Assembly: GCF_018977255.1 (NCBI RefSeq)
Contig: NW_024704742.1
Coordinates: 112,098,001-112,162,000, forward strand
From: Callorhinchus milii
Taxonomy: Eukaryota
DNA: 64,000 nt
Reading direction: 5' to 3'
In this document: positions 300-60,328 of the stretch, piece after piece
Layout of the letters: every line of letters begins with the position of its first letter
How positions within the stretch are numbered: position 1 is the first letter of the stretch
Position numbers and translations under genes: made by a program
Notes under the pieces: generated by a model
Databases searched by the model: none
Seen by the model: the letters and a program-made list of their open reading frames with translations, nothing else
Told to the model about the DNA's origin: nothing

Positions 300-962
300 T
301 TGGAACAGAGTAAAGAAAAGGATAGGAAACCAAGAATAGGAAGGAAAAAAGCTAAAATGGGAGAAGATGAAAGAAAAATGAATGGCGATGTGGGAAAGGA
401 GAGAAAAATGAATTACAGGAAAACTGGGAAAAGGGAAAGAATTGAAACCAAGGACACAAGGAAAAGGGGAGGGAGAAAAATAATACAGAGAGATCAAGGA
501 AAAATTAACAGAATGGAGAGGAGAGAGAATGACTGAGAGACGGTGAATTAAGGAAAAGAACATGGACACCATAAAAAAGGAAAAAAGAAAGCATAAGGAG
601 ACCAGGAAAAATACAGAACAAAGGGGAAAAAACAGAAAACTAGGAATATAGCAACATAGGAAATAGCAGACCAGGAAAAGGGAGGAAAAGTACATGGGTC
701 ATCAGGAAATGAAAAAATAGAGGAAAAAGCTTAGAAATAACAAATAGGGAAAGTATGCAGCAAAATAAGAGCAAAAGGAATCAGAACACACAGTGAAGTA
801 TACGTCGGAAACAAATGGAAAGGAGAAAAAGATAAGGGGAAACAAGGAAAAAGGGGAAAACAGTGAGCTCAGGATAATGAGAGAAAAATAGAATGGAGAG
901 ACCAGAAAACACAAGGAGACTGGGAAAAGTGGAGGGAAGAATAAATCATAGGGATAGCAGGG
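300..962 (+). repeat. Purine-rich (A/G) low-complexity tract
   Basis: Plus strand is almost all A/G with recurring GAGACCAG(G)AAAA-like words. The tract resumes at ~1349-1478 after a SINE. Confidence 0.85.
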
Positions 963-5104: not shown

Positions 5105-5575
5105 ATTTGTCTGCCTATAACGTCCCCCACGTCGAGAGGGTGTCCCAAGGCGCTGGACAGTGTACAGCATTTCAGACCCAAGCTAGCGGCGGGGGGAGAA
5201 GGGAGGGGTGGGGAAGGGATTGGCCGATCACATGGTCGAAGAGGAGGGTCTTGAGGCGGGACTTGAAGGAGGCTAAGGAGGGTGCGAGGCGGAATGATTG
5301 GGGGTTGGAATTCCAGAAGTGGGGGCAGAATGGCTGAAGGCTTTCCCGCCAATGGTGGGGCGAGTGGGTCGGGGAACATGGAGCAGGCCGGAGCCGGCTG
5401 AGCGGAGGGAGCGTGTGCGTTGGTAGGGGATTAGGAGGTCGCAAAGGTAGGGTGGGGTGAGACCATGGAGGCCTTTGTAGGTGAGGACCAGGATCTTGAA
5501 CTGGATCCTCTGAAGGATAGGGAGCCAATGAAGTCGGGCAAGAATGGGGGAGATGGGACCATCTGGAATGAAGGG
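5105..5575 (-). mobile_element. L2 LINE 3' fragment
   Basis: Translation LARLHWLPILQRIQFKILVLTYKGLHGLTPPYLCDLL...RSLRS...GGKAFS is the typical L2 ORF2 C-terminus. Confidence 0.92.
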
Positions 5576-6610
5576 AGTAAGAGAGCACAACACTGTACTG
5601 GAGAGAATAAGAAGGCAGCTGAAAGTAGATTGGAGACTGCAACTAAGAAATGCTTTGTGTTTACAATAAAGGACTTGATAAAGACCACAAAAATCCTTTA
5701 AGGGGTAAATCGGGATTGATATTGGAGAAGATTTTGTGCCTCATGGATTTTGTACCTCAGTTTTGACAAATGGAGATTCTTTCTAATTTCCACACTATTT
5801 GTACTGAAATATTTGTTCAGGAATGTTTTAACACAAGTTTCAAAACTGTAAGATCAGTGCCTGTTTTTAATTATTTTAACATAAAATTATACAAATAGCA
5901 TTCGTTCAGACAGTAAGGGGTTAAAATCACTGCCACTGGGAAATCCTGACTGGCTTTTTACTTAAGCATTATATTTTACATAACTGAGGTGTAAAAGACT
6001 TTCCTATCATTCATGGTTATCATGTTTGAGAGTGTCAGGGGGAAAATTTCCCCCCTTTATGCCTGCCTTCCAAAGCATGGGATTGATTGTATTTTAATAA
6101 GCTTCAGATACTCTCAGCTCATCTAATCGGGTTTTTGTACTGCACACCATCACCAGATGTAGGAGACCATTGTTCTAACGTAATCACGTTCTTTAAAGGG
6201 GTATCTGACCTGCCATCTTCAAAGAGAAGTTCCTGAGATCAAAGAGTTGTGCAGCTCAAAAAGGGGTAATTGGAAAATGATCTTTAGTTCTTCCTTATGT
6301 GAAGGAAACTGGTGAGACATTTCAGTTATCAAGTGGCTCTGCGAGTCTGGACTGAGCAAAGCTACTGTGCCTCATTGAATTTGCATCCAGAATTGCATTC
6401 CTGTATCTAAAGATCTGAGGTTCTTACTTATTAATTCTGCAAAGGACTGCAAGAGTATCAATGTCTGAATTAACTCTTTTCTTCAAATACTTGTAAATAG
6501 TGGAATCTATCTCACTCTGATTGCTAAAAAAGATATCCTCGGGTTTTCTTTATAACGGAATTTTTAGCGATCAGCGTAAAATAGACCCCCATTGCCTTTT
6601 GCACTTAGTT

Positions 6611-7189: not shown

Positions 7190-8300
7190 ACAAAGAATGT
7201 ACAGCACATAAAAAGGCCCAACCAGTCTGCTGGTCCTCGGCCCATCCAGTCTGTGCTGGTGTTTATACTTCACAAAAGTCTACACCCATTCGTTACTCCC
7301 TACCATACCCTTCGATTTCCCTCTTCCTCATTGTGAAGGTCTAGCTTCAAGTCTATGTGATTCAACCACGCTTCAGGAAGAGAGTTCCACAATCTCACTA
7401 CCTCTGCATGAAGTAAAATTTTCTTTTAGATCCCCTAGTCACTGTCTTATTCTTGTACCCCGGTTACAAATTCCCCAAAACAGCATATTTATGATAACCT
7501 TATCAAAAGCTTTCATAAAAAAGCTTTTGGAGTGCTGTAGCTCAGTGGTTAGAGCACTCGCTTTGCAAGTGAGAGACCTGAGTTCAATTCCAGGCAGGGC
7601 GAAACCTTGGGCAAGTTTCCTAACTCCACACGCCTAATAATATTCCCTCCAAAACCAAAAACAATAATAAATTGGTCATTTTCAATCTACGACTGTTTGT
7701 GGGACATTGCTGTGCGCAATTGGCTGCCGCGTTCTCCCACAAATATACAGTCAATTCGCTTTAGAGTGTGTTCTGTGAAGCGCTTTGGGACGTCCTCCCG
7801 ACGTGAAAAGTGCTATATAAAATGCAAGGATTATTATTATTATTATTATAATTTTAAATATCTCTATTACGTCCCCTCTTAAAGCCTCTCATCTCTAACA
7901 AAAAAGGCCCAACCTATCCAGTCTATCCTGATAGCAGTAACCTGCCAGTCCTGATATCAATTTTGTAAACCTACACTGTACTCTTTCCATTGCTGCTACA
8001 TCCTTCTTATAGTGTGGAGACCTGAATTGGATACACTATTCCAAATGTGGTCTAACCAAGGTTTGTATAAATTCAACATCACATCACTTCCTTACTTTTA
8101 TATCCCATGCCTCTGGATATAAATCCCAAGACTCCATTGGCCTTTTCATATTGCTGTATCCACCTGCGTGACTACTTTTAGAGATTTGTGGATCTGAATC
8201 CCCAGAGCTCTTTGCTCCTCGAGATGGCTTCTTTATTTTTCCTGCTGAAGTGTATTATGTTGCATTTTCCTACTAAACTTCATTTGCCATCTGTCTGCCC
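7190..8300 (-). mobile_element. CR1 LINE 3' fragment interrupted by a SINE
   Basis: CCTGAATTGGATACACTATTCCAAATGTGGTCTAACCAAGG is the reverse complement of the LVRPHLEYC-like CR1 motif. CR1-type 3' UTR near 7200. Confidence 0.85.
7529..7849 (+). mobile_element. tRNA(Ala)-derived SINE, short young subfamily, full length
   Basis: A box TAGCTCAGTGG, B box GAGTTCAATTCC, (TTA)n tail. Nearly identical to 20777, 58091 and 58936 copies. Confidence 0.95.
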
Positions 8301-11474: not shown

Positions 11475-13021
11475 CACGCAATAGGGAGGAGTAACCCAAG
11501 GCTGGAGCAGTCATTCAACTCGACCAGTAACTAGTGAATGAATGGATTCTGAGCTTGCTCTGTTGCCTTCAGAAGCCATGCTCACTGCCCACGTCTCCTT
11601 TACTCTGTGTATTACATCACCAGAACATACCAGCTTGTCAATCTCCTGCACAGGAGCCCTGAACAGTACTAGATGGTTTGAAAAACATACACACAGGTCA
11701 TGGGGTCAATTGATCTTTATTAAACCTTTGACCCTAATAATGATCTTTAAAGTCACAGTTTTGACAAATGTAACTAGTGAAAAACATACAAAGACAATTC
11801 TAAACAGATTGATAGATCTTGCATGTAAACATGTAAAAGGGAAGAGAAAATGATGCCATTAATATCATTGTGCAAGGATTATTATTATTTTTATTATCAT
11901 TATTATTACCTACATCACTTACAAATGATAGCCCAATGCGTCCATGTTAAACAACTAGACAGAGATATAAAGATGCCTCTGAAGAGACCACAAATATATA
12001 AAGAATGAAAATAACAGTAGCCTTTGACAACACTCTTACCAGCCACCACGAATAATATGCATATCAATAGTCTGTGAATCTGCAGCAGTCCCATGAAGGT
12101 GTTTTACCATCTTCACTCTGGAATAACTGAGGGATGAACCTTTCGGTGCTGAACCTTTCCAACAAAGTAAAAAAGTAATGTCCAAGTTTCTGTGAAGTGT
12201 GAAGTCTGTGAACTGTGAACGAGCTTGTAACTCAAAGCTGGAGATGGTAGCCATGAGCCATGAATCAATTCAGCTAGATTATCCTCTTGGCCAGCTTCAT
12301 CTTGTAGCTTGCTTTTTAAGAAGGTGGAGAAAGATTGTTTTGTGGACCACTGCAAAAAAAAAGAGTCATGTACACTATCGAGTCCTCCATGCTGTCTGGC
12401 TGAAGCAGTTGCTTCACTTGCAGCTGGTTGATCCCTTCCTACTTCAATGGAAGGATGTATATTTAGAATGTCACTATGAAAAGTAAACCTTCAAAATGGC
12501 CGCTTCCAGAAATTGACAGCATGAACTTAAACTCAGCACATTCTCTTATTACCCCTTCCACACGCTTGCAGAATGTCTAGCAAAATTGAGAATTGGTATC
12601 CTGTATACATATCATACATATTAAAATCTGTTCAGTGAAACACGGTTAGCAATAGTGGTTTTGTTCTGAGGTATTACTCTTATATTGCAAATGTTTCTGA
12701 AGGCTGGGTCTGAGCGGGAGTTACGAGTCTACTCTGTGCTAAGTTGAGAGAGTTATTTGATGAGAGGAGCTGCTTCTAGCTGCACAGACTGAAATAAACA
12801 GATATTTGCCTGAAAGCAGCAATAGCTGTAAGTAAAGTTTCACTTAAGGGAACAAGTTCCCCATTCTGACTTGCGCCCATTCTGCCATGATGGTTCCAAG
12901 GACAGAAACCTGGAGCTTGATAATGACAAGCTCAACTAGGGGTACTTTAGCACTCATATTAAAAGCCTCAGAAAAGATAGAATTTGAATAGGAAAATAAC
13001 ACTGCCCTGTATACCACCTAT

Positions 13022-13477
13022 TGAGTCTGTCTCAGTTGATAGAACTCTTGCCTCTGAATCAGAAGGTTGTGGGTTCAATCCCATATCAGGGCTTCAAAAC
13101 CATGGTCTAGGCTGACACTCCAGTGCAGTGCAGTGCAGGGGGTGTGCTGCACTATTGGAGGTGCTGTGCTTTGGATGAGATATTAAACTAAGGTCTTGTC
13201 TGCCTGCTTAGGTGAAAGGTAAAGATCTCATGTCACTATTTGAAAAGAGAAAATGGTTTTGACCAGTGTCCTACCCAACAATGCCCCAAATAATATTGAG
13301 CATTCAGTTCATGCTATTTGTGGGATATTGCTACGTGGATACTCTCTGCCATGTACACCTACAGATACACAGTCACCACACTTCACGGTAAATTCCTATG
13401 AAGTACTTTGAGATATCTCTCAGTGATGTGAAAAGGTGCTATATCAAATGCAATTATTATTATAATATTATTATTAT
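13022..13477 (+). mobile_element. DeuSINE (SacSINE1/AmnSINE1-like) element, near full length
   Basis: tRNA-like head (GCCTCTGAATCAGAAGGTTGTGGGTTCAATCCC), Deu-domain-like GGATGAGATATTAAACTAAGG...AAAGATCTCATG, L2-like tail. Confidence 0.85.
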
Positions 13478-13725
13478 GTACTGACCTAATTAACATCAAA
13501 TATTTCACATTGGCTCTGCAGAGGTGCTATATCTAGGTCACCACAATGGGAATTGTAGAACCCTTAGGAATGCTATCAAACTTATGAACAGCCCCAAACT
13601 ATGAAGAATAGTGAATATGTATTTAGAAGGAATAGGTCATATGAAATACTTTGAGAAATGCATTAAACAGAAAGCTACCTGTTATGGATAATATGGATAT
13701 ATTACAAGTTTGAAGGAAGTAACAT

Positions 13726-20776: not shown

Positions 20777-21111
20777 AATAATAATAATAATAATAGTAAT
20801 AATAATAATCCTTGCATTTGATGGAGCGCTTTTCACGTCGGGAGGACGTCCCGAAGCGCTTCACAGAACACACTGTAAAGTGAATTGACTGTATATTTGT
20901 GGGTGAACGCGGCAGCCAATTGCGCACAGCAATGTCCCACAAACAGTCGTAGATTGAAAATGACCAATTTATTATTGTTTTGTTTTGGAGGGATTATTAT
21001 TAGGCATGTGGAGTAAGGAAACTTACCCAAGGTTTCGCCCTGCCTGGAATTGAACTCAGGTCTCTTGCTTGCAAAGCGAGTGCTCTAACCACTGAGCTAC
21101 AGGACTCCACA
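20777..21111 (-). mobile_element. Short-subfamily SINE, full length
   Basis: Complete head to tail, flanked by AGCGAA at 20773-20778 and 21111-21116 (TSD). Confidence 0.95.
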
Positions 21112-21408
21112 GCGAACATATAACATTAAAAAGAGAAGCAACTCAGTAATGTTTATTCCTCTGCAGCCCCACTTTGTGCACTTATCAGAAGCACTTCCAC
21201 CATAACCCAGTGCCGTAACTCACAAGCAATAGCCCTTTTTCTATTGTAGCAAGATCCTATTGTACAGCAATGCTGATTGGGCAATATTTCACTTATTTTA
21301 ATCTTTAATGTTGAATCTCAGTGGTATGCTTACCCAAATATATGTATAAATTGCAATTCGAAACAGTAGGAAACCTGGTTCAAGGTTTGCCTTGAATGTT
21401 TGCCAAGT

Positions 21409-22097
21409 CACTACCTCACCCCTCACGCTGCTGAAACTCTGGTCCACGCCTTTGTCACCTCAAGGTTGGACTATGGGAACTCTCTCCTCGCCGGCCTTCC
21501 CGCACCTCCCTCCACAAGCTGCAGGTCATTCAGAACTCTGCAGCTCGTGTACTGTCCCGCACCAGGCTTCGCGACCACATCACTCCCACCCTCGCTCGCC
21601 TCCACTGGCTCCCCATCCCCCAGAGGATCGAATTCAAGATCCTCATCCTCACCTACAAGGCCATTCACGGCCTTGCTCCCTCCTACCTCTCCGACCTACT
21701 ATCCCCCCACATACCTGCCCGTACCCTCCGTTCCTCTGGCTCCGGTCTGCTCCACGTCCCCCGCCCCAATCGCCCGACCATCAGTGGTCGGGCCTTCAGC
21801 CTCTCAGCCCCCAGGCTCTGGAACTCCATCCCCCAGTGCCTTCGCCTTGCTTCCTCCCTTTCCTCCTTCAAGGCCGGTCTCAAGACCTTTCTCTTTGACC
21901 GAGCCTTCAGCTCCCCTCTCGACTCTCTTCCCCCTCCTCGCTTCCTCCCTCCCCTCACCCTGACCATTTCCCCCCTCCTCGCTCCCTCCCTTCCCTCCCC
22001 TCACCCTGACCATTTCCCCCTGCTCGGGTCCTGACCCAACTGTGCAGCGCCTTGGGACGTCCTCCCAAGGTGCTTTATAAATGGAATCTTGTTGTTG
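21409..22097 (+). mobile_element. Young L2 LINE 3' fragment
   Basis: HYLTPHAAETLVHAFVTSRLDYGNSLLAGLP translation, CpG-rich, TTGTTGTTG tail. Internal ~45-bp duplication at ~21930-22020. Confidence 0.95.
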
Positions 22098-28080: not shown

Positions 28081-28139
28081 CTGTGTGACTAACAAAAAGT
28101 CATTCTGACGAGGGAATTGCACATTCCCCTCCAAATTGG

Positions 28140-28464
28140 GGAGTCCTGTAGCTCAGTGATTTGAGCACTCCTTTGCAAGCGAGAGATCTGGGTTCGATTC
28201 CAGGCAGGGTGAAACCGTGGGGAAGTTTCCTTACTCCACACGCCTGATAATAATCTCTCAAAGAAAGCAATGATAAATTGGTCACTTCAATCCACGACTG
28301 TTGGTGGGACACTGCTGTGTGCAATTGGCTGCTGTGTTTCGCCCACAAATATAGTCAATTCACTTTGCAGCATATTCTGTCAAGCGCTTTGAGATGTCTC
28401 GAAGATGTGAAAAGCGCTATATCAAATGCAAGGATTATTATTGTTATAGTATATTATTATTATT
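28140..28464 (+). mobile_element. tRNA-derived SINE, full length
   Basis: GGAGTCCTGTAGCTCAGTG head, GGTTCGATTCC B box, TTA tail. Confidence 0.93.
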
Positions 28465-28810: not shown

Positions 28811-30224
28811 CATTATCTGAAAAAGAGGGCAAAAAGCAAGTAATAAAAGCATTGACACAATAAAAAATATACTCACTCACTGCAAACGACTTGCTTCTAA
28901 TCAATCTAAAGTGGCCTGAAAGGAACAGTCCCTTGGAAGTGTTCTTGATATGTGTGAGCACCTTTAGTACATTAAAGTGTCCACAGGTGCCACAAACATC
29001 AATATGAACATGAACTTCATGTTGACCAGGCAGTAAAACCTCAACCACATACAGACAGTAAAATCACAGCAGTGACAAAAACGTGGAAATTCACCCCCGC
29101 ATGAAAAATAGTATTTTGTCTTTAATTAACTTATTAAATTGTAAATAAATAATAATTAATAAATAATAATAAAATAAACCTTGCATTCCATATCGCACCA
29201 CTCACGTCGGGAGGATATCTCAAAGCACTTCACCGGATTGTCCTATAAACAACAACATACATTTATATAGCACCCTTCATGCAGGGTAGTGTCTTTGAGC
29301 GCTTAAGTGTGACGTGCAAAGTTTAGTTACATTTAGTATATTTATCTGTGAATAATGTTATTTGTACATTTTATTAATATGTTAATAAGCACCACAGCCA
29401 TTTAAGTTCAGTACTGGATGCATCACTAGTTATTGTTAAATTGTTATTGTTTGTAACTATTTGTCATTATTAAAATTGTTCTGAATTTTAGTACCAAACT
29501 ATAGCCAGGATATGCTACACTAAAGCCTCACTGATACTTCTCAAACAAAGGCCCATATTAATATTGCTTCCCGCCCACCCATTGGCACTGCCAGAGGGTT
29601 TCTGGGTCTCAGTGCTGTGATGACAAGCTCCCATTAATGCAATGTGACAAATTTCAGCAATGGAATTTTTATAAAAATGTTAATGCCACACTAGCCTCAG
29701 TCAATATAGCCGATAGGCATCTCAAAGGCAATGCAGCACTGAGCACTCTGTGTCCTTTAGTAATTCTGTACTTCTGCAAAAATATACAGACTCCCTTCTC
29801 TGACAGGACTGATGCTTCTTCATTTTATTCTGTGGTTTTCCTCCTTGAACTGTTTTGTTCTCCAGTGATTATGTAATTAGGGCAAATCTGAAAGAAAGAG
29901 ATTGTCTATTTTAACACTCAACAAGTGTGGGCTTTCCTCCCAGCATTCGTGTGAAATCATGATAGCATGAAAGCAGCCAGGAAGTGGACTTAAAGCAGTA
30001 TGGCTTAATTTAGCATCTATGCCAGTAAAATCACAAGTATTGCAATTCCAACCACGTAAAACTCTAAATTTAGGATTTAAAAATAAATTAGCACTGCCTA
30101 AAAAACAATAATAACAACTTCTAGTACTACTCCTGGATTTCTAGCAAGTCCACTACCTTACAAATATAAAATTTACAATGCGCCTTTTTACATCAGGGGA
30201 ACATCTCACGGCATTGGAATAATA

Positions 30225-30652
30225 ACCCTTACATTGGGTTAGTGCCTTTCAGAACAGGAGGATGTCCCAAAACACTTCACAGGATTTACTGTAAAGTGCA
30301 GTGACTTTTTTTGTGTGTGGGCACACATGGGAGCCAGTTTGCACACAGCAATGTCCCACAGACAGCCATGAAGTGAGTGATCAATTTAATTTGGAGATTG
30401 TTGGTCAGGACCCTGGAGAAATTCCCTTCTCTTTTCAAATAGTGTCATGAAATTTTTAACATCCACCTAAACAGGCAAATGGGGCCTCAGTTTAATGTTT
30501 CATGTGAAGGACAGCACCTCTGACAATGTCGGACACCCCCAGCACTGCATCAGAGTGGCAGCTTAGACAAGAGGTGTTCCAAGTACTGACGTGGAACATT
30601 GAACCCACAATCTTTTGACTCAGAGGTGAGAGTGCTACCAATTGAGCCAGAT
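30225..30652 (-). mobile_element. DeuSINE-like element, near full length
   Basis: Reverse complement of the 13022-type head (GAACCCACAATCTTTTGACTCAGAGG) and Deu block. Confidence 0.85.
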
Positions 30653-30934
30653 GATTTTCATACTGAGTTACTCTGTAACTGAGCACTCTCTCAGCTGCAG
30701 TCTGACTTAGCTGCTTGCACCCCTCAAGGTAATTTACAGTTTACCTAATCAAGAAATAGATCAGAGGGATCTGGGATCAAACAGGTTGAGAGAGATTTAG
30801 CACAATGTTTTGACGTAAATAAAATATTTAAATTGATTTTTCTTCAAGAGTAATGAGGGTTTTTTATATTAAAAAAATCTATTCCTTTAAATTAAGATCT
30901 CAACGGTCTACAAAAAGTATTAAACGGAACAGTA

Positions 30935-31180: not shown

Positions 31181-31409
31181 TCAATGATCCAGCAGCACTG
31201 TATACAGCTGCCTAAAATTAAAACAAACTTTTTCAGTTTTGTGATATTGAGTACTGTTCTAGGTGTTAATGCAGATACTAATGGCAAGAATAATATTTAT
31301 TATTGCCTTTGTAATATCACGGTACCCAGTCCCAGCAAAGATTCAGTTGTATTTGATCAATGTAAAATGACATATACTCGGATGGTTCTCTCCTCCTCAG
31401 CTTGTAAGA

Positions 31410-32035
31410 TGACTCATTGCCCAGTGAGATATTGAGCAATACAGTCACACAAGGTTCCAAGATTGAATCCCATTCTATGCTGAGTTAGCTGCTGAGACAC
31501 TAGTTAGCCTCAGTGCCATGAGCAAGGCAAGCAAAATCAAGTCAGGGTGTCCCTCCAGAGGGCTGAAATTCCACGTAGACTTAGCTTGTAAGACTATGTT
31601 ATAATTTAAGTCCATACAGAATCATGAAAATATTTAAATTCAGTTTCAATTTGGAAGCTGGTTTTCCAGAGTTCTTAAAAAGAACCAGCTTCCAGGTTGG
31701 TACTGAACTTAATCATTTTCCACAATATTGTGCAATCTTACATTTTCAGCCAGAACATTCTCACTGACAAGAACTGGGTGAACGTTGGACCTCTGAATAC
31801 TACTGTACCAGTGGGCCTGGTGGCCAGTTTGGATGTTGAGGCAGAACCAATCAGCCATGATATCCCCCAACACCCACTCGAATAACCTGCTCATATTCAT
31901 TGTTATATATTAGCCCTATATTGCTAATATAATTTTTTTTAAAATTGGCCCCAGGAAACACACATTAGTACCCCAACATGAGTTAACACCTTGGGAGAGA
32001 AGAGAAAAAAAATTGAATAAAGAAAAAAATAAAAT
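31410..32035 (+). mobile_element. Old SINE-like repeat (family B) interrupted by a MITE
   Basis: CTATGCTGAGTTAGCTG...AAAATCAAGTCAGGG, continues after 31751 and ends in an A-rich tail. Confidence 0.6.
31560..31751. mobile_element. Palindromic MITE, PIF/Harbinger-like
   Basis: Termini GGGCTGAAA / TTTCAGCC, 3-bp TSD AGA (31557-31559, 31752-31754), internal 27-bp stem. Confidence 0.7.
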
Positions 32036-41682: not shown

Positions 41683-42360
41683 AAACAATCCTTGCATTTG
41701 ATATGGTGTTTTTCACATCAGGAGGGCATCTCAAAGTGCTTCACAGAATTTACTGAAAGTAATAATAATACTCCTTGCATTTAATACAGTGCCTTATCAC
41801 ATCTTCAAGACATCCCACAGCACTTCACAGAATATATACTATAAAGTGAATTGACTGTGTATTTGGTGGGCGAAACGGAAGTAAGGAGTAAAGGAAACTT
41901 GTGGAGTAAAAAACTTGCCTGTTTCGCCCCGCCCATGAATCAAACCCAGGTCCTCTAACTAGCGAGTTAAGTACTCTAACCACTAAACTGCAGGACTCCA
42001 TGAAAGTGTAGTGACTATATATTTTATAGGTGAATGCAGCAATCAATTTACATACAATAATAACCCACAAGCAATTATGAAGTAATTTTATCTGGGGGAT
42101 TGTTGACCAGAACACTGGGAGAAACTCTCTTCTTAAGTTGTTCCATGGATCTTTAGATCTTTAATGTCCACCTGAACAGACAGATAAGATCTTGGTTTAA
42201 CATTTCATCTGAAGGACGGCATCTCCAGCAATGAGCACAGCCCCAGTACTGCACTGGAGTGTCAGCATAGCCGATGCAAGTTCAAAATCCCAATGGGCAG
42301 CTTAAGCCCACAGCCTTCTGATTCAAGAGTTGAGACTTCTAGCAACTGAGCCATGCTGAC
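41683..42360 (-). mobile_element. DeuSINE-like element containing a nested SINE
   Basis: Collinear with 13022-13477 on both sides of 41761-42000. Confidence 0.85.
41761..42000 (-). mobile_element. Internally deleted SINE with 7-bp TSD
   Basis: TGAAAGT at 41754-41760 and 42001-42007. Head and tail are present, the middle is missing. Confidence 0.88.
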
Positions 42361-43388
42361 ACCTGGTTTAGAACCGTATTTCAATTATAAAATTGCCCGA
42401 AAATACAAAGGAACTACACTGAACACTGAACTTTTTTAAAATATAAATTTATATATTGTAACATGGAACTGTACAGTTTAACATTTGTATTTCATTGCAA
42501 TCATTCCTAAAGAAACACTTGTCAACTGTCGACCAATTTCAATGGTTTTTTTTGTCAGCCGAGAGTTTGACATAACTAGGAAACCCTTACTACATGCCCC
42601 TCAGGCACTTTCAGCTCCAACTGCTGAGAACTCACAATGTCAAGAGTTTCTGTTTGCAGATTCTGGAGTGCTTACTCACCATTTAAATGTAAGACAAGTG
42701 GAATGAAGAAAGGCCATTTGGACCATCAAACATTCTCCTTTCACAACTTGTAAATGTCATATTGATCCCTGACTCTCTGTTCCCCCACTCCACCTGCATG
42801 GATCTCTCAAGTATTATGTCCTCTTTCTCTAGCTCTCATGGCAAGCAAGAAGCGCAATCCTTAGCTAAATGAATTTGAATCAGCTTAGAATATATATCAG
42901 CCCTCTTTACCCAGCTTTGTTTTAAAGGAGTCAACTGAACTTAGAATTACTTACTTTTTGGGGGAGTCTATTCACACATATACCTTGTGGCATAATAAAA
43001 TTTTAAATTCCAATGGGATGCTCGGTTCAGTGAGTTTTTACAGACACGAGCTGCAGAGTTCTAATGACACCCAACTCAGCATTCTAAATAGTTTGCTGTT
43101 TGTGGAGGAAAGAGGCAGGAAGTCCAGCAAGCAGGGAGTTTGCAAAGTCAAGGCTGGATGTGATAAATGCATGAATGAGTATCTCGGCAGCCTGAGGGAA
43201 GAGGCGGTGGTAGGCAATGATGCGCAGTGGGGGAAGGCAGAATGGATCATTGCATGGATGTGGGGTTTAAAGAACAGTTGAGGGTTAAATAAGACACCAA
43301 GGTTTCACACCGGCTCTGTGAGGTGGATTGTGCATCCATGAATAGTGATGCTGTCGGTGCCTGAGGTGATGAGGTGCTGATGGGAGCC

Positions 43389-43527: not shown

Positions 43528-44625
43528 CAGGAAGGCCTCCATCTAGTCAAAGTTCAACTGGAGAAAGTTAGCCCTCATTCCAGGACTCCATGTCTGACAA
43601 ACAATCTGCCAGGACAGCGGTAGTCCTGGAGTCGAAGATGGAGGCAGAGAGATAGAGTTGGGTGTCACCTGCATAAATGTGGAAATTAACCCCAAGCTTG
43701 TAGATGACATTACTGAGAAGGAGCATATGAATGTTAAAGTGAAGGGGATCAAGGACAGACTGCTGTGGAAGGCCACATGTGAAAGTACGAGGGTAGGAGG
43801 AGAAGCCATTGGTAGGTATAAAGTGCAGACAATGGGAAAGATAAGATGGAAACCAGGCAAATACACAACCATGATGGTAGAGATGAGAGAAGAGGCTGTG
43901 GAGGAGATTAGAGTGGTCGACAGAATCAAAAGTGACAGAGAGATCGAGAAGGAAGGAGAGACAGAGAGAGCCCTGGTCACAGATGGAGAGAATATCATTT
44001 GTAACTTTGACCAAGGCTGTCTCTGTGCTGTGGGCAGCATGAAAACCATATTGGAAGGGTTCATACGAGTGGTGGGAGAAGAAAGAGCGAAGCTGGTTAT
44101 CAATGACTCATTTCAGGACCTTGGAGAAAAAGGATGGTTGAAGATGGGAGGGTAGTTGGAGAACAGAAATGGACCAAGGAAGGTTTTTTGGGGTGGGAGT
44201 GTTGACAGCTGTTTTTAAGAGGGTGGATACTGTGCCAGTGGACAGAGATAAGTTGCTGATGTCCATTAATAGGGGAGCAAGGAGGTGGATCTGGGAAAAA
44301 AGGAAAGGGGTAGGGTGGAGTCAAGGGAGCAGGTGGTAGACTTTAGTTGGGAAATTATGGTGTTGAGAGTAAAGGGGGAGACAGAGTCCAAAGTGTGGAG
44401 GGAGGGATGGGTTGGGAGGGGGCAGAGGGCGAGGTGGGGAGGAGGTGGCAGTAGAAAGGATAAAACAGCAGAGTGGATCAACTCAATCTTGGATGCAAGG
44501 AAGTCCATTATTTTCTCACATTTGGAGTTGGAGGAGAGAATGGGCAAGGCATGGGAAAGTGAATGGAGTTTATGGTGGAAAAGAGAAGACTGGGCTTTTC
44601 TTTGGCCTCCAAGATGATCTTGGAA

Positions 44626-45197
44626 GAGAACAACAATAACAAAGTTACATTCGTAAAGCGCCTTTCATGTCGGGAGGCCTTCCAAAGGCGCTGGACAGAC
44701 AGAGTTACGGATCCGAGCTGGGGGTCAGGGTTGGGGAGGTTGGAAGGCAGGGGAGGAAGCAAGGAGATCAAAAGCACGGTCGAAGTGGAGCGTCTTGACA
44801 TGAGTCTTGAAGGTGGCATGGAGGGGCCGAGATGGAGGGACTGCGGGATGGAGTTCCAGAGGGTGGGGGTAGAGTGGAAGAAGGCCTGCCCGCCAATAGT
44901 GGGGCGAGCAAGGCGGGGACTTGAAGCAGGGTGGAGTCCGCTGAGCGGAGGGAGCAAACAGGATGGTAGGGGGGTGAGGAGGTTGCAGAGGTAGGGGTGA
45001 GCAAGACCATGGAGGACTTTGAAGATGAGGACCAGGATCTTGAACTGTATTCCCTGTGTGATGGGAAGCCAGTGGAGTTGGGCGAGGATGGGGGTGATAG
45101 CATCACAGAGCCTGGTGTGGGAGAAGACATGGGCTAGACATCAAGCAATGAGTTTGCATCGTTGAGCCTCGATGTAATGAAAGCATGTATGAGGGAC
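44626..45197 (-). mobile_element. Second L2 3' fragment inserted into the older L2
   Basis: It has its own tail and C-terminal motifs and splits the host frame between YRSTLTSAK and SKIILEAKEK. Confidence 0.85.
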
Positions 45198-45404
45198 GTA
45201 GAAGGACAATTTAGCTGAGGTGAGGGTGGAGCGGTAGGTTTTGGTGCAGTTCAGACGGATCTGGTGATGGATCAAATTAAGGAAAGGGAACAGTAAATAA
45301 TAAACTTTAAGTGTCCATTAGCAGATCTGAAAAAGGAAAAATATTTAGATGTGGTGGTTGAACATGTTTATGCTTGGATTTATCATATTGCCTATGACAT
45401 AGGG

Positions 45405-45710
45405 AGGTGCTTTCCAGTAGTTGTTGTCAAATGTAATGACTGCATATTTGTAGGACAATGTAGAACTCACTTTGTGCACAACATTTTCCCGCAAACAACA
45501 ATGAAGTGAATGATCAAATTTAATCCAGAATATTGTTGTCCAGGATACCCGGAGAAACTTTGTTTTCTCTTCGAATAGTTGTGACCTTTAGCATTCGCCT
45601 GAACAGGCCAACGGAGACCTTTGGCTCAATGATTCATCTGAAGAACCACAAGCTCCAATAATTCAGTGCTCCCCAGGACTACACTGGAGTGTCAGCCTGG
45701 AATATGTAAT
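45405..45710 (-). mobile_element. DeuSINE-like fragment
   Basis: CACTGGAGTGTCAGCCTGG and CCTGAACAGGC blocks. Confidence 0.75.
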
Positions 45711-45849
45711 ACTCCAGGCTCAACCATTGTACCCAAGTTAGGGACACTCAAAACCAGTCAATCATCATTGATTGAAATTCTGCTATTTCTCAACTGATTC
45801 AATAATAACTATTCAGATTGGATCAAATCTATGTTACGTTACATAGTAG

Positions 45850-52569: not shown

Positions 52570-53165
52570 TATCAATGTTTTGGGTGAGGAGATAATTGGG
52601 CTTTACCATCCCTGCTTTTGAAAAGGCTACAAACATCACTATCCCAAATGCATCTATGAATAAATGGTCATTTAAGCAAGGTACCTAGGGGTAATTGCTC
52701 ATAGCATCCCCAGTGGAAAGAGCCAAATGTCTTAAGGAGAGAAGGAATAGATATTGGTGGCAGGTGATAAAGGAACATTTCAGTTTGCAGGCTCCCGCTA
52801 CCTATTTTAGAAAGTGGGATAAACCTTTTTTGTGAAAAAAAATGTTTTATTTACTCACAAACAACCTGACATACTAATCACCTGATCATCAGCAAGGAGG
52901 TACCCATGACATGTGATCCTGGGTGCTGAGTATCAACAGGCTACTTGACCACAGAAAATATTACAGCTGAGCCTTACCCTGTCTTCACCTACATCCACAC
53001 ATGCATTTCCAGCTGGGGGTGAAGAGGAGGAGGGCAAGATAAAAGTATCACTTCCTTAGCCTAGAAACGCTGAGACCATTTGTAGTAATCCCACCCTGTC
53101 TTTCTATACACCAGGGAATGATCCAGGGTCCTGTCTGATCTCTGAGACTAGTGGCTCATTCGGTG
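52570..53165. mobile_element. Two family B fragments (52570-52760 plus, 52895-53165 minus)
   Basis: GTGAGGA...AATGGTCATTTAAGCAAGGTACC on plus; CAGGCTACTTGACC...CCCTGTCTTCACC...CACACATGCATTTCCAGC on minus. Confidence 0.55.
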
Positions 53166-53599
53166 GCATTTATCATCAGATAATGCAGGTGATAAAGGTT
53201 GGCTTCAACTTTCAAAAAGTGATGACAAGTTTTCTGTAACAAAATTAATCAACATAAGGTTAGAATGTTTTCGAAAGTATCATAAATAATTATCACATAA
53301 TTTGCTTTGCCTCTGTTTTGAAATATATATCATTGACTGCAAATCATTTTTGCAAAGATTGCAGAACACAAAACATGTTGTTTTTGAAAGTTGAAACAAA
53401 GTCCAGTGACCAATAGGCAGAGTGTTGTCTTTGGATTAACATTAAGGATGTGTGAATGACAGGCAGCATACAGAGGGAATTAAAAATAACTTTACTTAGA
53501 AGAGCATATTTCACATTTGAATGTCAAGTATTTCCCAAATATAGTACCTCTATAGCTAATTCTTTTGGCTCACAATGAATTTTAAAAACTGGTCATTGT

Positions 53600-54200
53600 C
53601 ACTGCTTTATCACCATGGAAAGTACTAAGTTATATAGGCAGGACAGTCCAGGTTGAATTGTAGTCTATGCTGATGGTTTTTGTGATGGAGTTTCACCCCC
53701 TTCCCTAACTCCAGCGTCAAGGATACTCACATGAAACCATGTAAATCTTGCCCTCAAACCACCAAAAGACTCTGCAGGCACCATCCATTGAAAAACAACT
53801 TCATGATCAATGATCGATCCACCATATCAACAGTTATAATCAACAGCAGTTAAATCTGCACACTTGGTCTCAGCCAAAAGGCAGTATATGCTGAGTTACT
53901 TAATCTCATGCCAAGTTAGCACTTTGGGTACTCTGGATGACTTCAGTAACCTTGGACTGTCGGAATGGAATGAATAAATCAATCTCTGGTTCTACTCTTG
54001 ATGCCTCTTCAGTGACTCCAAGCTGAAAGTGCACATGATATATGATGAGGGCAGTATTAGCTCGACTGTAATACTCTCCACTGTCAAATAACTTGCCAAA
54101 TTCCCTGGCTTGGCTCACATTTAAAGAATGGCCACACATATATAAGACACCCATTCAAACATACTAGAGTAACAATTGGCTGCTTCAAGAGGGGAGAAAA
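53600..54200 (+). mobile_element. Family B element split by a U2-headed insertion
   Basis: GTCCAGGTTGAA...CTATGCTGA | insert | TATGCTGAGTTAC...AAGAATGGCCAC. Confidence 0.65.
53674..53886 (-). mobile_element. U2 snRNA-headed retroposed insertion
   Basis: 8-bp TSD TATGCTGA (53666-53673, 53887-53894). Minus strand starts with GCCTTTTGGCTGAGACCAAGTGT (21/23 to U2 nt 12-34 as recalled) and ends ...CATCACAAAAACCA. Confidence 0.75.
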
Positions 54201-54814
54201 TAGACAAAATATTTTCCAGCACTTTCCTCACTCTGATACAATACCACTTTTAGATCCCAAGGGGACTTGATCACATATAACAAATGAATATTGGTTATAC
54301 GTGTGTTATGGTATCAAATCCACTATTGCAAACTACTTTTGCTATGAATTTCCCACCAAATTCTTCTGGCAGTTGGTTTCCGTATTATGGAATGCTGTTA
54401 GAAAGCATATATTAAAACCCAGTCTTGGTCATGTTTATGATCAAATTACCAGAAACACCTAATGTTTGCGCAGATTCCTGGCTCAAATGCAAATTCCAGT
54501 GTCATTCTTCTTTGTCAGATGTCAAGATTTTGAATTATTGGATGAAGAATTGTTGTAATTTAGCAAAAACTTTGCATGTAATTTCAAACAGTTAATAAAA
54601 TGAGTACTGTAGTGCCCTTATTTGTTTCAAAATGAATAACAGTAGATAGATCTGTAAATGTTTTTGTAATATTCGAAAATTTTTGCAGGTATGATCACAT
54701 TTTAATTTTTTGTAATGAATTTTAAGGTATTTTTGTGGTTGAAAAATCACCACATTCTTTTCCACACTTGTCACAATTATGTATCTCAGTGTTATTTGCA
54801 CTCAGGCAACCAAG

Positions 54815-55050
54815 TGTCAGTCTGGCTCAGTTGTTGGCACTTTTGCCTCTGATTAGAAGATTGTGGGTTCAAGTCCCACATCAGGGACTCAAACCCCGGA
54901 TCACCAGGGTTAAAAGGAGCCTTGTGAAAGAATCCCTGTCCCCAGCTAAAGTACATGTTTTCTTGAACATATAACAGTCAAAACACTTCAAAGTAACTCA
55001 TTGTGTGATGTATATTATAACGTTTGATTCAACGTTAAATGCAAGTTTTT
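54815..55050 (+). mobile_element. DeuSINE-like head and tail with large internal deletion
   Basis: GGCTCAGTTGTTGGCACTTTTGCCTCTGATTAGAAGATTGTGGGTTCAAGTCCC head. Confidence 0.7.
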
Positions 55051-57139: not shown

Positions 57140-57436
57140 CTCCCCAATCCACTACCTGCTGCCTCCAAATAATTGGCTCCAGCCTCCTGCTTGTCCCTTG
57201 TGTCTTCCATTCCACCATCGGCAGCCACACTTTCAGCCACTAAGCCCTGAAACTATCCCTCTACCTTGCCCCATCCTTCCCCATCTTCAGGTCTTGCATG
57301 AAGACCTTCCTTTTCGACTGTGCTTATGTTCATCATCCCCCTCCCCCTGGCTTGAGGATGTGCTCCACCACGGTCAAGCACTCTGGGACATTGTCCCGTA
57401 TTAGAGGCGCTATATAAATGTAAGCTATTGTTGTTG
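57140..57436 (+). mobile_element. L2 3' fragment
   Basis: CCACCATCGGCAGCC...GGCGCTATATAAATGTAAGCTATTGTTGTT. Confidence 0.8.
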
Positions 57437-58090
57437 AAACCAAATTATGGTTGATATGCTGCAACCCCATCTGATACCAGCTAACTCAGCACGGGCCAGA
57501 TATCAAAGCTTCCTCGTCTGTCCAGCTCAGTCTTACCACAAGCCAAACCTTCACTAAGTGACTCATGTGAGGACCTTTGGGAAAAATACTTTTAAAATAA
57601 GGCGCTCGCAATATCCAAAATGTACAGTGGGAGCTGGAAAATGGAAGAATAATCCTTATATTTTTGGTAAGGTAAAGCATAAATATTGAGATTGACAAGA
57701 GGTTAGAAGAAATAAACAATAAAAAAGGAAGGAATTTAGAAGACCAGAAAATCATGTCTTCAATATGGAAGTCCCAGTTTACAAGTACTATTCCTCTCTA
57801 TTTCTCATACCTCCACCCTTCCCACCACCATCATAAACCTAATTTCTTCTCGATGATATCAGCATTCATCAATTTAACTACTTCGCTGAGCAAATTGATT
57901 CACATATTTACTAATTCCAAGACCACCATCCATATCCCTGCCAACTTCACTCCTTCCTGCATTCCATACATGAGCCCCTCCAATCTGGCTTCTGTCCAGC
58001 ACACAGCACCAAGACTGGTCAAATCACAAATGACATTCTCTCCATCTGCGACCAGGGTTTCCTCTGCCAATTATCAACATTGCACAACAT

Positions 58091-58394
58091 TGTGGAGTCC
58101 TGTAGCTCAGTGGTTAGAGCACTCGCTTTGCGAGCGAGAGACCTGAGTTCAATTCCAGGCAGGGCAAAACCTTGGGCAAGTTTCCTTACTCCACACACCT
58201 AATAATAATCCCTCCAAAAACAAAAACAACAATAAATTGGTAATTTTCAAACTACGACTGTTTGTGGGACATTGCTGTGCGCAATTGGCTGCCGCGTTCG
58301 CCCACAAATATACAGTCAATTCACTTTACAGTATATTCTGTGAAGCGCTTTGGGACGTCCTCCCGACGTGAAAAGCGCTATATCAAATGCAAGG

Positions 58395-58492
<98 letters not shown>
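58091..58492 (+). mobile_element. Short-subfamily SINE with expanded (TTA)~32 tail
   Basis: Full head; perfect triplet tail at 58395-58492. Confidence 0.95.
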
Positions 58493-58935
58493 CCACACCA
58501 GCCTTAATTCACAGTGACAACAAACCATTTAGCCCAAGCGTACAATTCCCCACAAGATTCATCACTAATAAACAGAAAATATTTCAAAATTATAGGAGGA
58601 TCAAGGGGACAGAGAGATACTTGACACATCTTTAACCATCTCCAATTATAGCTATATTATTAGGCACTCAATACTGTGGAACTCCTTATTTCCATTAGCC
58701 TTCCCTTCCTCCAACAATCTACAAGCCCAAAACCAAGCTTGGCATCAATCTGGCTTCTGTGCTGCCCACAGTACTGAGACTGCCATGGGCATTCTCGCCA
58801 TCTTTGACCAGGACTCTGTCTGTCTCCTTATCCTTTTTGGCTTATCTGCCAACTTCAACACTATCAACCATTCTATCCTTCTCCATTGCCTTTCCTCTCA
58901 GCTCCACTTCACAGTTTTGTCCTTCCCTGGTTTAT

Positions 58936-59256
58936 TGTGGAGTCCTGTAGCTCAGTGGTTAGAGCACTCGCTTTGCAAGCGAGAGACCTGAGTTCAATTC
59001 CAGTCAGGGCGAAACCTTGGGCAAGTTTCCTTACTCCAGACGCCTAACAATAATCCCTCCAAAAACAAAAACAATAATAAAGTGGTCATTTTCAAACTAC
59101 GGCTGGTTGTGGGACATTGCTGTGCGCAATTGGCTGCCGCGTTGGCCCACAAATATACAGTCAATTCACTTTACAGTGTGTTCTGTGAAGCACTTTGGGA
59201 TGTTCTCCCGACGTGAAAAGCGCTATATCAAATGCAAGGATTATTGTTATTATTAT
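58936..59256 (+). mobile_element. Short-subfamily SINE, full length
   Basis: Intact CTCGC-TTTGCAA-GCGAG anticodon arm (TGC, Ala), A and B boxes, tail. Confidence 0.95.
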
Positions 59257-60328
59257 AATTCTTGCCTATCCCAACAACTCCACTTTGTACTTGCCTACAG
59301 GTTCTCCTGCCCTACACCATCACATGTGACGTTCCACGGGGCTCTTTCCTTGGACCTCTCCTCTTTAATATCTACATGCTCCTGCTCGGTGATGCCATCC
59401 GCAAGTAGGAGATTAACGTTCATATGTATTCGAATGACAGCCAACCTTATCCCTCTGCCTCCATTCTTGATTCAAGGACCATTGCAGTTCTGATTGATTG
59501 CCTGATTTCCATCAATCTACATGAATGTACACTCCACCTCATGAAGCCAGAGCAGAACTTTGGTGTCTTGTTCTACTCTCAAACCCACATCCATGCCCTG
59601 ATCCATTCAGCTCCTCCCCATCCTGCCCCACCACCACACCCCCCACAACATTGCCTGTCTCCACCACTACCTCTCCCCTCAAGCTGCCGAGACACTTTTC
59701 ATACTTTCATCACTTCTAGGCTTGACTATGCCAACCTACTCTCTCTGGACCTCTGCGACCTTCTTAAACCCTACCAACCCACCCGCTCCCACTGTTCGGC
59801 AGTCACTGGCCTGCTCCACAGCCCCATCCCTACCCACCCCACCATCGAAGGGCAGGTTTTCAGCCTTTATGTCCCCACTCTCTGGAACTCCTTCGTGGAA
59901 TCTCTTCACCTCATCCCTTCCCTTGTCTCCTTCAAGGTTCATTTCAAGACTTTCCTCTTTGACCACACCTTCAGTCATCTTCCCCCACCCTTGGCCTCCA
60001 CCCCTCTCAAATCCAACCCCCAGCTTGGCTGCAAATTTTGATTGTCCAGGGCCTTGGAATGTCACTCCGACATGAAAGGTGCTCTATATATGCAATTGTT
60101 AGTGTTGAAATTACCCTTCACAACTCTAAACCTTTGTCTCCTTGCACTACTCTCTTGATACATCCTAAAGTACAGATCTGGGTTTACTACCTCAATCCCA
60201 TTTTATTTTATAGTGATAAGGACCAGACAGCCTCACCAGCTTTTCTGCTCCTTAGTCCAGGCATGACAAGACCAATTGCAGCACCCCTTCTCAGCTCAGA
60301 TAAATAATAATAATAATTACAGAGTTGG

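What the first reader, a model, noticed from the sequence alone, without database searches (positions are those of the whole stretch)
53666..53894. U2 snRNA-headed retroposon (SINEU/Keno-like) with a clean 8-bp TSD
Seen: a 213-bp insert splits an older repeat and is bounded by TATGCTGA on both sides. On the minus strand it begins with GCCTTTTGGCTGAGACCAAGTGT (53882-53860), continues with ~185 nt unrelated to U2, and ends in an A-rich CACAAAAACCA. Known: U2 nt 12-34 is GCCTTTTGGCTAAGATCAAGTGT; snRNA-headed SINEs (SINEU) are described in crocodilians; Keno (Tx1) and Utopia LINEs insert near U2 nt ~37. Inference: this is a snRNA-headed SINE, or a U2-Keno/Utopia chimera, mobilised by an L1/Tx1-type enzyme in a cartilaginous fish.
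Basis: partly seen in the sequence, partly recalled or inferred. Interest (0 to 1): 0.72.

Follow-up and report, generated by a model that had tools for sequence, protein, structure and literature searches.

The report
One-off U2 snRNA chimeric retrocopy
A 23-base scrap of the spliceosome's U2 RNA, joined to an unidentified RNA fragment, was pasted into an older repeat in a chimaera-like fish genome; it looks like a single reverse-transcription accident of a known kind, not a new family of jumping elements.

Summary
The insertion is real. The flanking repeat is longer than reported: 12 bp with one mismatch (53662-73 / 53883-94), so the insert is 209 bp and starts exactly at U2 nt 12 (21 of 23 matches, to nt 34). 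Removing it rejoins an older repeat (0 of 900 control tiles scored as well). Contigs of two other studies span both junctions. There is no poly(A) and no LINE or SINE tail from this window. The family claim was not supported: of 7,939,851 contigs (963 Mb) of one run of the same species, 3 were laid at 80% likeness, namely this locus and two pieces of 37 and 34 nt. Filters and old age limit that test. The U2 part stops short of the Keno/Utopia site (nt 38/39) and no U2 3' half follows. Best reading (0.6): a single template-switch chimera of truncated U2 and another RNA, a known class of snRNA pseudogene. The body is unidentified; a weak Pfam hit (KIAA0319_N, E 0.004) hints at an mRNA fragment. 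An old, sparse SINEU-like family remains possible (about 0.2).

The parts
53883..53894 (-). 5' copy of the target-site duplication (12 bp; core 8 bp at 53887-53894 exact)
   Evidence: 11 of 12 identical to 53662-53673
53860..53882 (-). U2 snRNA-derived head, U2 nt 12-34, truncated at both ends
   Evidence: 21 of 23 matches, both differences transitions; best U2 match in the window
53674..53859 (-). 186-nt body of unidentified origin; no poly(A); three T runs of 4 or more in the insert
   Evidence: no hit in window, Rfam or local LINE/SINE tails
53717..53785 (-). possible decayed coding fragment resembling the KIAA0319 N-terminal (MANEC) domain; lead only
   Evidence: Pfam PF23597 E 0.004, 17.4 bits, below the cut-off of 27; control 0 of 150 frames at E 0.004 or better, 1 of 150 at 17.3 bits
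53710..53746 (-). 37-nt piece of the body with a remote look-alike elsewhere in the genome
   Evidence: 5 differences, one other contig in each of runs X4 and X1, unrelated loose ends; approximate E 0.008-0.03
53662..53673 (-). 3' copy of the target-site duplication
53613..53673 (+). left part of the older host repeat (probably the head of a tRNA-derived SINE; that label is inference)
   Evidence: aligns with 31405-31580 across the rejoined junction
53895..54125 (+). right part of the older host repeat
   Evidence: continues the alignment to 31405-31580; 54004-54125 matches 52906-53027 on the minus strand, E 0.0006; one 34-nt piece laid from another contig

Best explanation
A single, dead chimeric retrocopy. 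A non-LTR retrotransposon enzyme nicked an old SINE-like repeat, began reverse transcription on an internal A-rich point of some cellular RNA (no tail), copied about 186 nt, jumped to U2 snRNA at its single-stranded branch-point region (about nt 34), copied back to nt 12 and closed the site, leaving a 12-bp duplication. Shown: duplication, U2 head at its edge, same orientation of head and insert, split host repeat, presence in other samples. Inferred: template switch, internal priming, one-off status. Unknown: which enzyme, and which RNA gave the body (weak lead: a KIAA0319-family mRNA fragment, sense to the U2 head). It has no evident function or promoter.
For: U2 nt 12-34 begins exactly at the 12-bp duplication. 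U2's 5' end faces the duplication and its truncated 3' end faces the body, the layout of template switching rather than of the inverted twin-priming chimeras described in PMC4476161 (passages; the layout argument is my inference). Only 3 of 7,939,851 contigs of run X4 and 3 of 1,370,769 of X1 were laid at 80% likeness; X4 holds the whole 751 bp in one contig. Head and duplication give about 6.5% divergence (95% range 1.7-16%), and sister copies at 85% identity would show a layable piece in 79-96% of simulated cases under assumed seed lengths of 19 and 15. No tail shared with local LINEs or SINEs. Class is documented: snRNA chimeras with internal switching, one with a single-copy 'unknown' partner and a 15-bp duplication, and 5'-truncated snRNA heads made by non-L1 LINEs (PMC4476161); tailless, internally primed retrocopies (PMC5322556).
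Against: The donor of the body was not found either, although a one-off chimera needs one; it must be filtered out, missed by the aligner or more than 20% diverged. The host repeat, which has weak relatives in this window, also gave only one 34-nt piece in X4, so families of that age are almost invisible to the test; at 70% identity the simulated detection rate is 4-14%. A 37-nt piece of the body has a look-alike elsewhere (approximate E 0.008-0.03). The tool drops contigs that match human DNA, which could remove copies with an intact U2 head. The KIAA0319 lead is under the Pfam cut-off and the frame has 7 stops.
Confidence: 0.6

Rival explanations
1. A copy of an old, extinct, low-copy U2-headed retroposon family (SINEU-like) of holocephalans, whose members are now 70-80% alike and so mostly escape detection. 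The body may itself be partly U2-derived and expanded, as SINEU-3 is a rearranged U2.
For: Architecture like SINEU-1J (short U2 head plus unique 3' part; PMC4494074). A 37-nt look-alike of the body elsewhere. The host repeat is nearly invisible in the same test. No donor locus needed. Body aligns collinearly to U2 nt about 78-125 of L069: score 32, reached by 3 of 680 tiles, 6 of 680 for best of three vertebrate-like U2.
Against: Low divergence of head and duplication predicts detectable sisters; none laid. No poly(A). The extra U2 likeness is absent for 3 of 4 vertebrate-like U2 genes and for both profiles, and 15 of 227 tiles reach it when all 34 U2 sequences are allowed. Loose ends of the 37-nt look-alike do not continue into a U2 head or the same 3' end over the 30 letters shown.
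Confidence: 0.2
2. The U2 likeness is chance; the insert is a fragment of something else with a duplication (for instance a decayed tRNA-type head or a plain tailless mRNA retrocopy).
For: Only 23 nt; Rfam E 5.6, profile E 0.01-0.046 per window, and a scan reads very many windows. A-box-like and B-box-like motifs with one mismatch each lie at insert positions 7 and 64.
Against: The match starts on the first base inside the duplication and at the 5' end, where a switched template is expected; expected rate 0.0007 per window. Such box pairs occur in 60 of 604 control tiles, 14 of 604 with the A box near the start; ARAGORN and Rfam see no tRNA there.
Confidence: 0.1
3. An off-target retrocopy of a Keno (Tx1) or Utopia element, or a short derivative, that sat in a U2 gene and was co-transcribed with the U2 5' end.
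For: Both target U2 with the 3' flank starting at nt 39 (PMC4640811 passages). A master copy inside a U2 gene is the kind of contig that the human-match filter could drop (tool note; inference).
Against: U2 likeness ends at nt 34 (36 at most with a 2-nt gap), not 38; no U2 nt 39 onward after the insert; no reverse transcriptase or endonuclease similarity in any of 6 frames; no poly(A); no other copies laid. Keno/Utopia sequences themselves could not be compared.
Confidence: 0.07
4. A non-autonomous DNA transposon with an 8-bp duplication (hAT-like), or an assembly artefact.
For: The exact core of the repeat is 8 bp.
Against: No terminal inverted repeat (best local score 5 over the terminal 30-34 nt); the repeat extends to 12 bp; contigs of two other studies span both junctions.
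Confidence: 0.03

Closest known systems
Group IV snRNA pseudogenes: snRNA chimeras made by template switching (Doucet et al. 2015, PMC4476161; passages seen)
   Same: Truncated snRNA at the 5' end, another sequence 3' of it, one duplication around both; the paper lists a U5 chimera with a single-copy unknown partner, and 5'-truncated heads made by non-L1 LINEs.
   Different: The human U2 chimera in that paper is inverted (twin priming); here U2 is in the switch layout. The partner here is not a recognisable LINE or SINE 3' end and has no tail. Host is a cartilaginous fish.
SINEU (SINEU-1J, SINEU-3) of crocodilians (Kojima 2015, PMC4494074; main text parts 1-4 of 5 read, supplements not available)
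   Same: Short U2-derived head not starting at nt 1, unique 3' part, under 500 bp, about 10-bp duplication, internal T runs, sits inside an older repeat.
   Different: SINEU are families of about 140 to 7,700 copies with poly(A) tails and a preferred target; here no sister copy was laid, no poly(A), one site only.
Tailless retropseudogenes (Noll et al. 2015, PMC5322556; passages seen)
   Same: No A tail, 8-35 nt duplication, probable internal priming at an A-rich stretch; U2 is a known source.
   Different: Those are single RNAs with a near-complete 5' end; this one is two-part and 5'-truncated.
Keno (Tx1 clade) and Utopia, U2-targeting LINEs (PMC4640811; passages seen)
   Same: U2 5' sequence directly before non-U2 sequence, junction near the branch-point region.
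   Different: Junction at nt 34 not 38; not inside a U2 gene; no U2 nt 39 onward; no coding remnant.

Membership tests
SINEU | Head derived from U1 or U2 snRNA | tested here: met
   U2 nt 12-34, 21 of 23; short, so statistically modest
SINEU | Many dispersed copies sharing head/body junction and 3' end | tested here: inconclusive
   No sister copy in the window or among contigs laid at 80%; argues against a young family, but old copies and filtered contigs are not seen
SINEU | 3' poly(A) tail | tested here: not met
   longest A run 5, followed by CCA
SINEU | Target-site duplication | tested here: met
   12 bp, one mismatch
SINEU | Sequence similarity to catalogued SINEU bodies; target preference shared with Tx1-Mar | not testable with these tools
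   no Repbase or Dfam here; paper supplements not held; a single site cannot show preference
Keno / Utopia | Insertion in a U2 gene, 5' flank to nt 38 and 3' flank from nt 39 | tested here: not met
   U2 ends at nt 34; 3' flank is the host repeat
Keno / Utopia | Reverse transcriptase and endonuclease ORF or remnant | tested here: not met
   no such Pfam family in 6 of 6 frames
Keno / Utopia | UTR similarity to known elements | not testable with these tools
   no repeat library available
Group IV snRNA chimeric retrocopy | snRNA fragment and a second sequence inside one duplication | tested here: met
Group IV snRNA chimeric retrocopy | Second part is an identifiable retrotransposon or cellular RNA | tested here: inconclusive
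Group IV snRNA chimeric retrocopy | Empty orthologous site in a relative or allele | tested here: inconclusive
   no joint across the insert in 4 of 4 runs, of which two span it; the paralogous repeat at 31405-31580 serves as the empty state
Pol III (tRNA-derived) SINE | tRNA-like head with A and B boxes, no early T run | tested here: not met
   no tRNA call; box-like pair is common by chance; T4 at insert position 4
hAT-like non-autonomous DNA transposon | Terminal inverted repeats with exact 8-bp duplication | tested here: not met
   repeat extends to 12 bp

The most novel reading that the evidence does not exclude
This is one of the few recognisable copies of an extinct U2-headed retroposon family in chimaeras, possibly built from a rearranged and expanded U2 RNA, which would be an independent origin of SINEU-type elements outside crocodilians and a second system for asking how snRNA-headed elements without an internal promoter are transcribed and spread.
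Probability: 0.2. Interest if true: 0.55.

Novelty: new member of a known kind. Interest (0 to 1): 0.2.

Why it matters
As a one-off chimera it is a small data point: template switching onto U2 snRNA happened in a cartilaginous fish whose visible LINEs are of the L2/CR1 type (clade label recalled), and the insertion could serve as a presence/absence marker among chimaeras. If sister copies turn up it would be a SINEU-like family outside crocodilians, where the defining paper found none (PMC4494074); my searches found no paper joining SINEU with sharks, but Repbase and Dfam could not be searched.

Tried and rejected
No whole genome is held for this window, so no direct genome search was possible. 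Exact-pattern scans for the head/body junction: 0 hits in metagenome contigs; a U2-only pattern gave 3 viral contigs whose sequence does not match the body. Run search: 6 of 24 listed runs hold words, all one species, 3 studies; no RNA holder listed. Run X10 (another species) laid nothing and X6 covers only 53779-54150, identical to the window, so it may be the source and is left out as support; neither is evidence of absence. Folding of the insert: z -1.95, 9 of 200 shuffles as good, not persuasive. Rfam: nothing at gathering level near the locus. Whole-insert U2 pseudogene: only L069 supports it; profiles do not. Host repeat is not the SacSINE1-like family of this window (profile of 6 local copies, no hit). 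Protein searches on the body: phmmer of the least broken frame gave 3 hits that are sums of weak matches over bacterial repeat proteins, best single stretch E about 1e5, rejected; ESM Atlas best score 0.81 to unnamed clusters; PDB 0 hits; word-index search with the KIAA0319-like frame found no candidate, which is weak evidence; no paper printed the motif with KIAA0319. No KIAA0319 sequence could be fetched, so that lead stays untested at sequence level. Gene context: 148 long frames of the window gave only one Pfam hit above cut-off, an RT remnant at 43571-44107; short exons were not searched. The duplication does not start with an L1-type TT/AAAA site (consensus from PMC5322556), so the enzyme is unassigned. 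An HDV-like ribozyme in the 3' hairpin was considered by eye only and dropped (spacing does not fit; recalled topology). Earlier findings by sequence, words and nearby place: none. Supplements of PMC4494074 and PMC5499810 could not be read; they hold the SINEU and SacSINE1 alignments that would bear on membership and on naming the host repeat.

Full report
Observation. The 8-mer TATGCTGA stands at 53666-53673 and 53887-53894, 213 bp apart. The repeat is longer: 53662-53673 and 53883-53894 agree at 11 of 12, and 14 bp agree at 12. With a 12-bp duplication the insert is 53674-53882 (209 bp) and, read on the minus strand, starts on the first base of the U2-like stretch. A 12-mer with at most one mismatch has a partner 100-1000 bp away at an empirical rate of about 0.036 in this repeat-rich window, so the duplication alone is not striking; its coincidence with the U2 edge and with a split repeat is.

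U2 head. I fetched U2 genes that lie as contaminants in public genome bins (87 stretches; 34 distinct sequences kept after dropping duplicates and those cut near the pattern; one more). 53882-53860 matches U2 nt 12-34 at 21 of 23. All matches of 19 or more of 23 in the window are shifts of this one site. Expected by chance: 0.0007 per window for one U2 sequence; 0 matches of 20 or more in 10 shuffled windows. Profile E-values are 0.01 and 0.046; Rfam gives only 10.9 bits. The head is therefore probable, not certain.

Host repeat. With the insert and one duplication removed, the flanks align across the junction to 31405-31580 (score 41; 0 of 900 tiles reach it; 32 for the left side alone, 25 for the right alone) and more weakly to 57420-57580 (31; 6 of 900). 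54004-54125 matches 52906-53027 (E 0.0006). It is not the SacSINE1-like family of the window. Calling it a tRNA-derived SINE head is my inference from a B-box-like motif.

Organism. The window carries about 337-bp SINE copies with tRNA-Ala(TGC) heads and an older SINE sharing their 3' part, the pair described for Callorhinchus milii (PMC5499810, parts 1-2 of 6 read). A holocephalan is therefore likely; an earlier unchecked note on this genome says the same (e1-7812543).

Is it a family? No second copy is in the window by BLASTN or nhmmer. Six of 24 listed runs hold words of the insert, all under one species label. Laid at 80% likeness on 53400-54150: in X4 (7,939,851 contigs, 963 Mb) 3 contigs were laid; one spans all 751 bp with 6 substitutions and one inserted base, the others are a 37-nt piece in the body (5 differences) and a 34-nt piece in the host repeat (4 differences). 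In X1 (another study; 1,370,769 contigs) 3 were laid, one spanning both junctions, and the same 37-nt piece. No joint skips the insert. So the insertion is real and shared between samples, and no near-identical sister was laid. Head (2 of 23) and duplication (1 of 12) put divergence at 6.5% (1.7-16%); simulated sisters at 85% identity would show a piece in 79-96% of cases, at 70% in 4-14%, for assumed seeds of 19 and 15 letters and no indels.

What is the body? No Rfam family, no local LINE or SINE tail, no poly(A) or poly(A) signal, no terminal inverted repeat, three T runs. Two weak and mutually exclusive leads cover the same stretch. (a) One minus-strand frame hits Pfam KIAA0319_N over 23 residues (E 0.004, 17.4 bits, cut-off 27; E 0.0011 for the stop-free 27 residues chosen afterwards). 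In 150 control frames none reached E 0.004, one reached 17.3 bits (E 0.0076) and 4 reached 0.05: about a 1 in 25 chance for six frames. It is sense to the U2 head. The frame has 7 stops, and the extra base in X4 and X1 shifts it, so it is not a working exon. That the motif resembles the cysteine-rich MANEC domain is from memory plus the general description in PMC3000997 (passages); no KIAA0319 sequence could be fetched. (b) The body aligns collinearly to U2 nt about 78-125 of one vertebrate-like gene, L069 (score 32; 4 of 500 shuffles; 3 of 680 tiles), but not to L015, L079 or L091 (315-511 of 680 tiles as good) nor to profiles; allowing all 34 sequences, 15 of 227 tiles do as well. 'Vertebrate-like' is my label; the hosts are not given. 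At most one lead can be right.

Mechanism. Most likely (0.6) target-primed reverse transcription began inside a cellular RNA at the A-rich 3' stretch, copied 186 nt, switched to U2 near nt 34 and ended at nt 12. Internal switching onto snRNAs, 5'-truncated heads made by non-L1 LINEs, and a chimera with a single-copy unknown partner are all reported (PMC4476161, passages); internal priming without a tail is reported for many RNAs (PMC5322556, passages). The layout is not twin priming, in which the snRNA is inverted and its truncated 3' end would face the duplication (inference). The site lacks an L1-type TT/AAAA start, so the enzyme is open. Earlier unchecked notes on this genome report a truncated U2 fragment and a one-off 7SK-CR1 chimera; I did not test them.

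Comparison. It works like the founding event proposed for SINEU-1J, a single template switch to U2 (PMC4494074, main text parts 1-4 of 5), but fails SINEU membership on the poly(A) tail and shows no copies. It fails Keno/Utopia on junction position, absence of U2 nt 39 onward (PMC4640811, passages) and absence of coding remnants. Literature searches for SINEU-like elements in sharks gave 0 papers for 'SINEU, Repbase, shark', 2 for 'elephant shark, SINE, U2 snRNA, transposable elements' (listing only) and 4 for a looser set (passages of PMC3747384 seen); Repbase, Dfam and most subscription papers were out of reach, as were the supplements of two key papers.

Verdict. A real retrotransposed insert with a probable U2 head and a 12-bp duplication in an older repeat; most likely a single chimeric retrocopy, a new instance of a known class. 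Interest 0.2. The bold reading, an extinct holocephalan SINEU-like family, keeps about 0.2 probability and is settled by one sensitive search of a full assembly.

Noticed in passing
L001, L002, L003 (around 480-535, minus strand): Three public viral contigs of about 1.8 kb carry the 5' part of U2 snRNA (about nt 12-40, and nt 1-42 in L002, which passes the Rfam U2 gathering score) just after the end of the capsid frame, between two converging ORFs. In L002 these are a circovirus capsid and a helicase (Pfam). Whether this is already described was not searched.
   Followed up: partly
window 53750 and 53741: Runs X4 and X1 both show an extra C after 53750 and G>A at 53741 inside the insert, plus shared flank differences, so the window's haplotype differs from two other studies.
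   Followed up: no
window 7525-7869, 20777-21111, 28135-28464, 58089-58433, 58934-59263: About 337-bp tRNA-Ala-headed SINE copies, 82-94% alike, with many truncated relatives; fits the CmiSINE description.
   Followed up: partly
window 13013-13478, 30204-30668, 41990-42369, 45368-45797, 54803-54983: An older tRNA-headed SINE sharing its 3' part with the younger one; fits SacSINE1-CM.
   Followed up: partly
window 43571-44107: Reverse transcriptase remnant (Pfam RVT_1, E 3e-13); several other LINE 3' fragments at 5128-5740, 21350-22034, 44508-45140, 59409-60107.
   Followed up: no
window 31405-31580, 52906-53027, 57420-57580: Weak relatives of the host repeat, a third and very old family that I could not name.
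   Followed up: partly
L004-L090: Many bacterial genome bins in the genome collection contain eukaryotic U2 snRNA genes, often in tandem arrays, that is host contamination.
   Followed up: no
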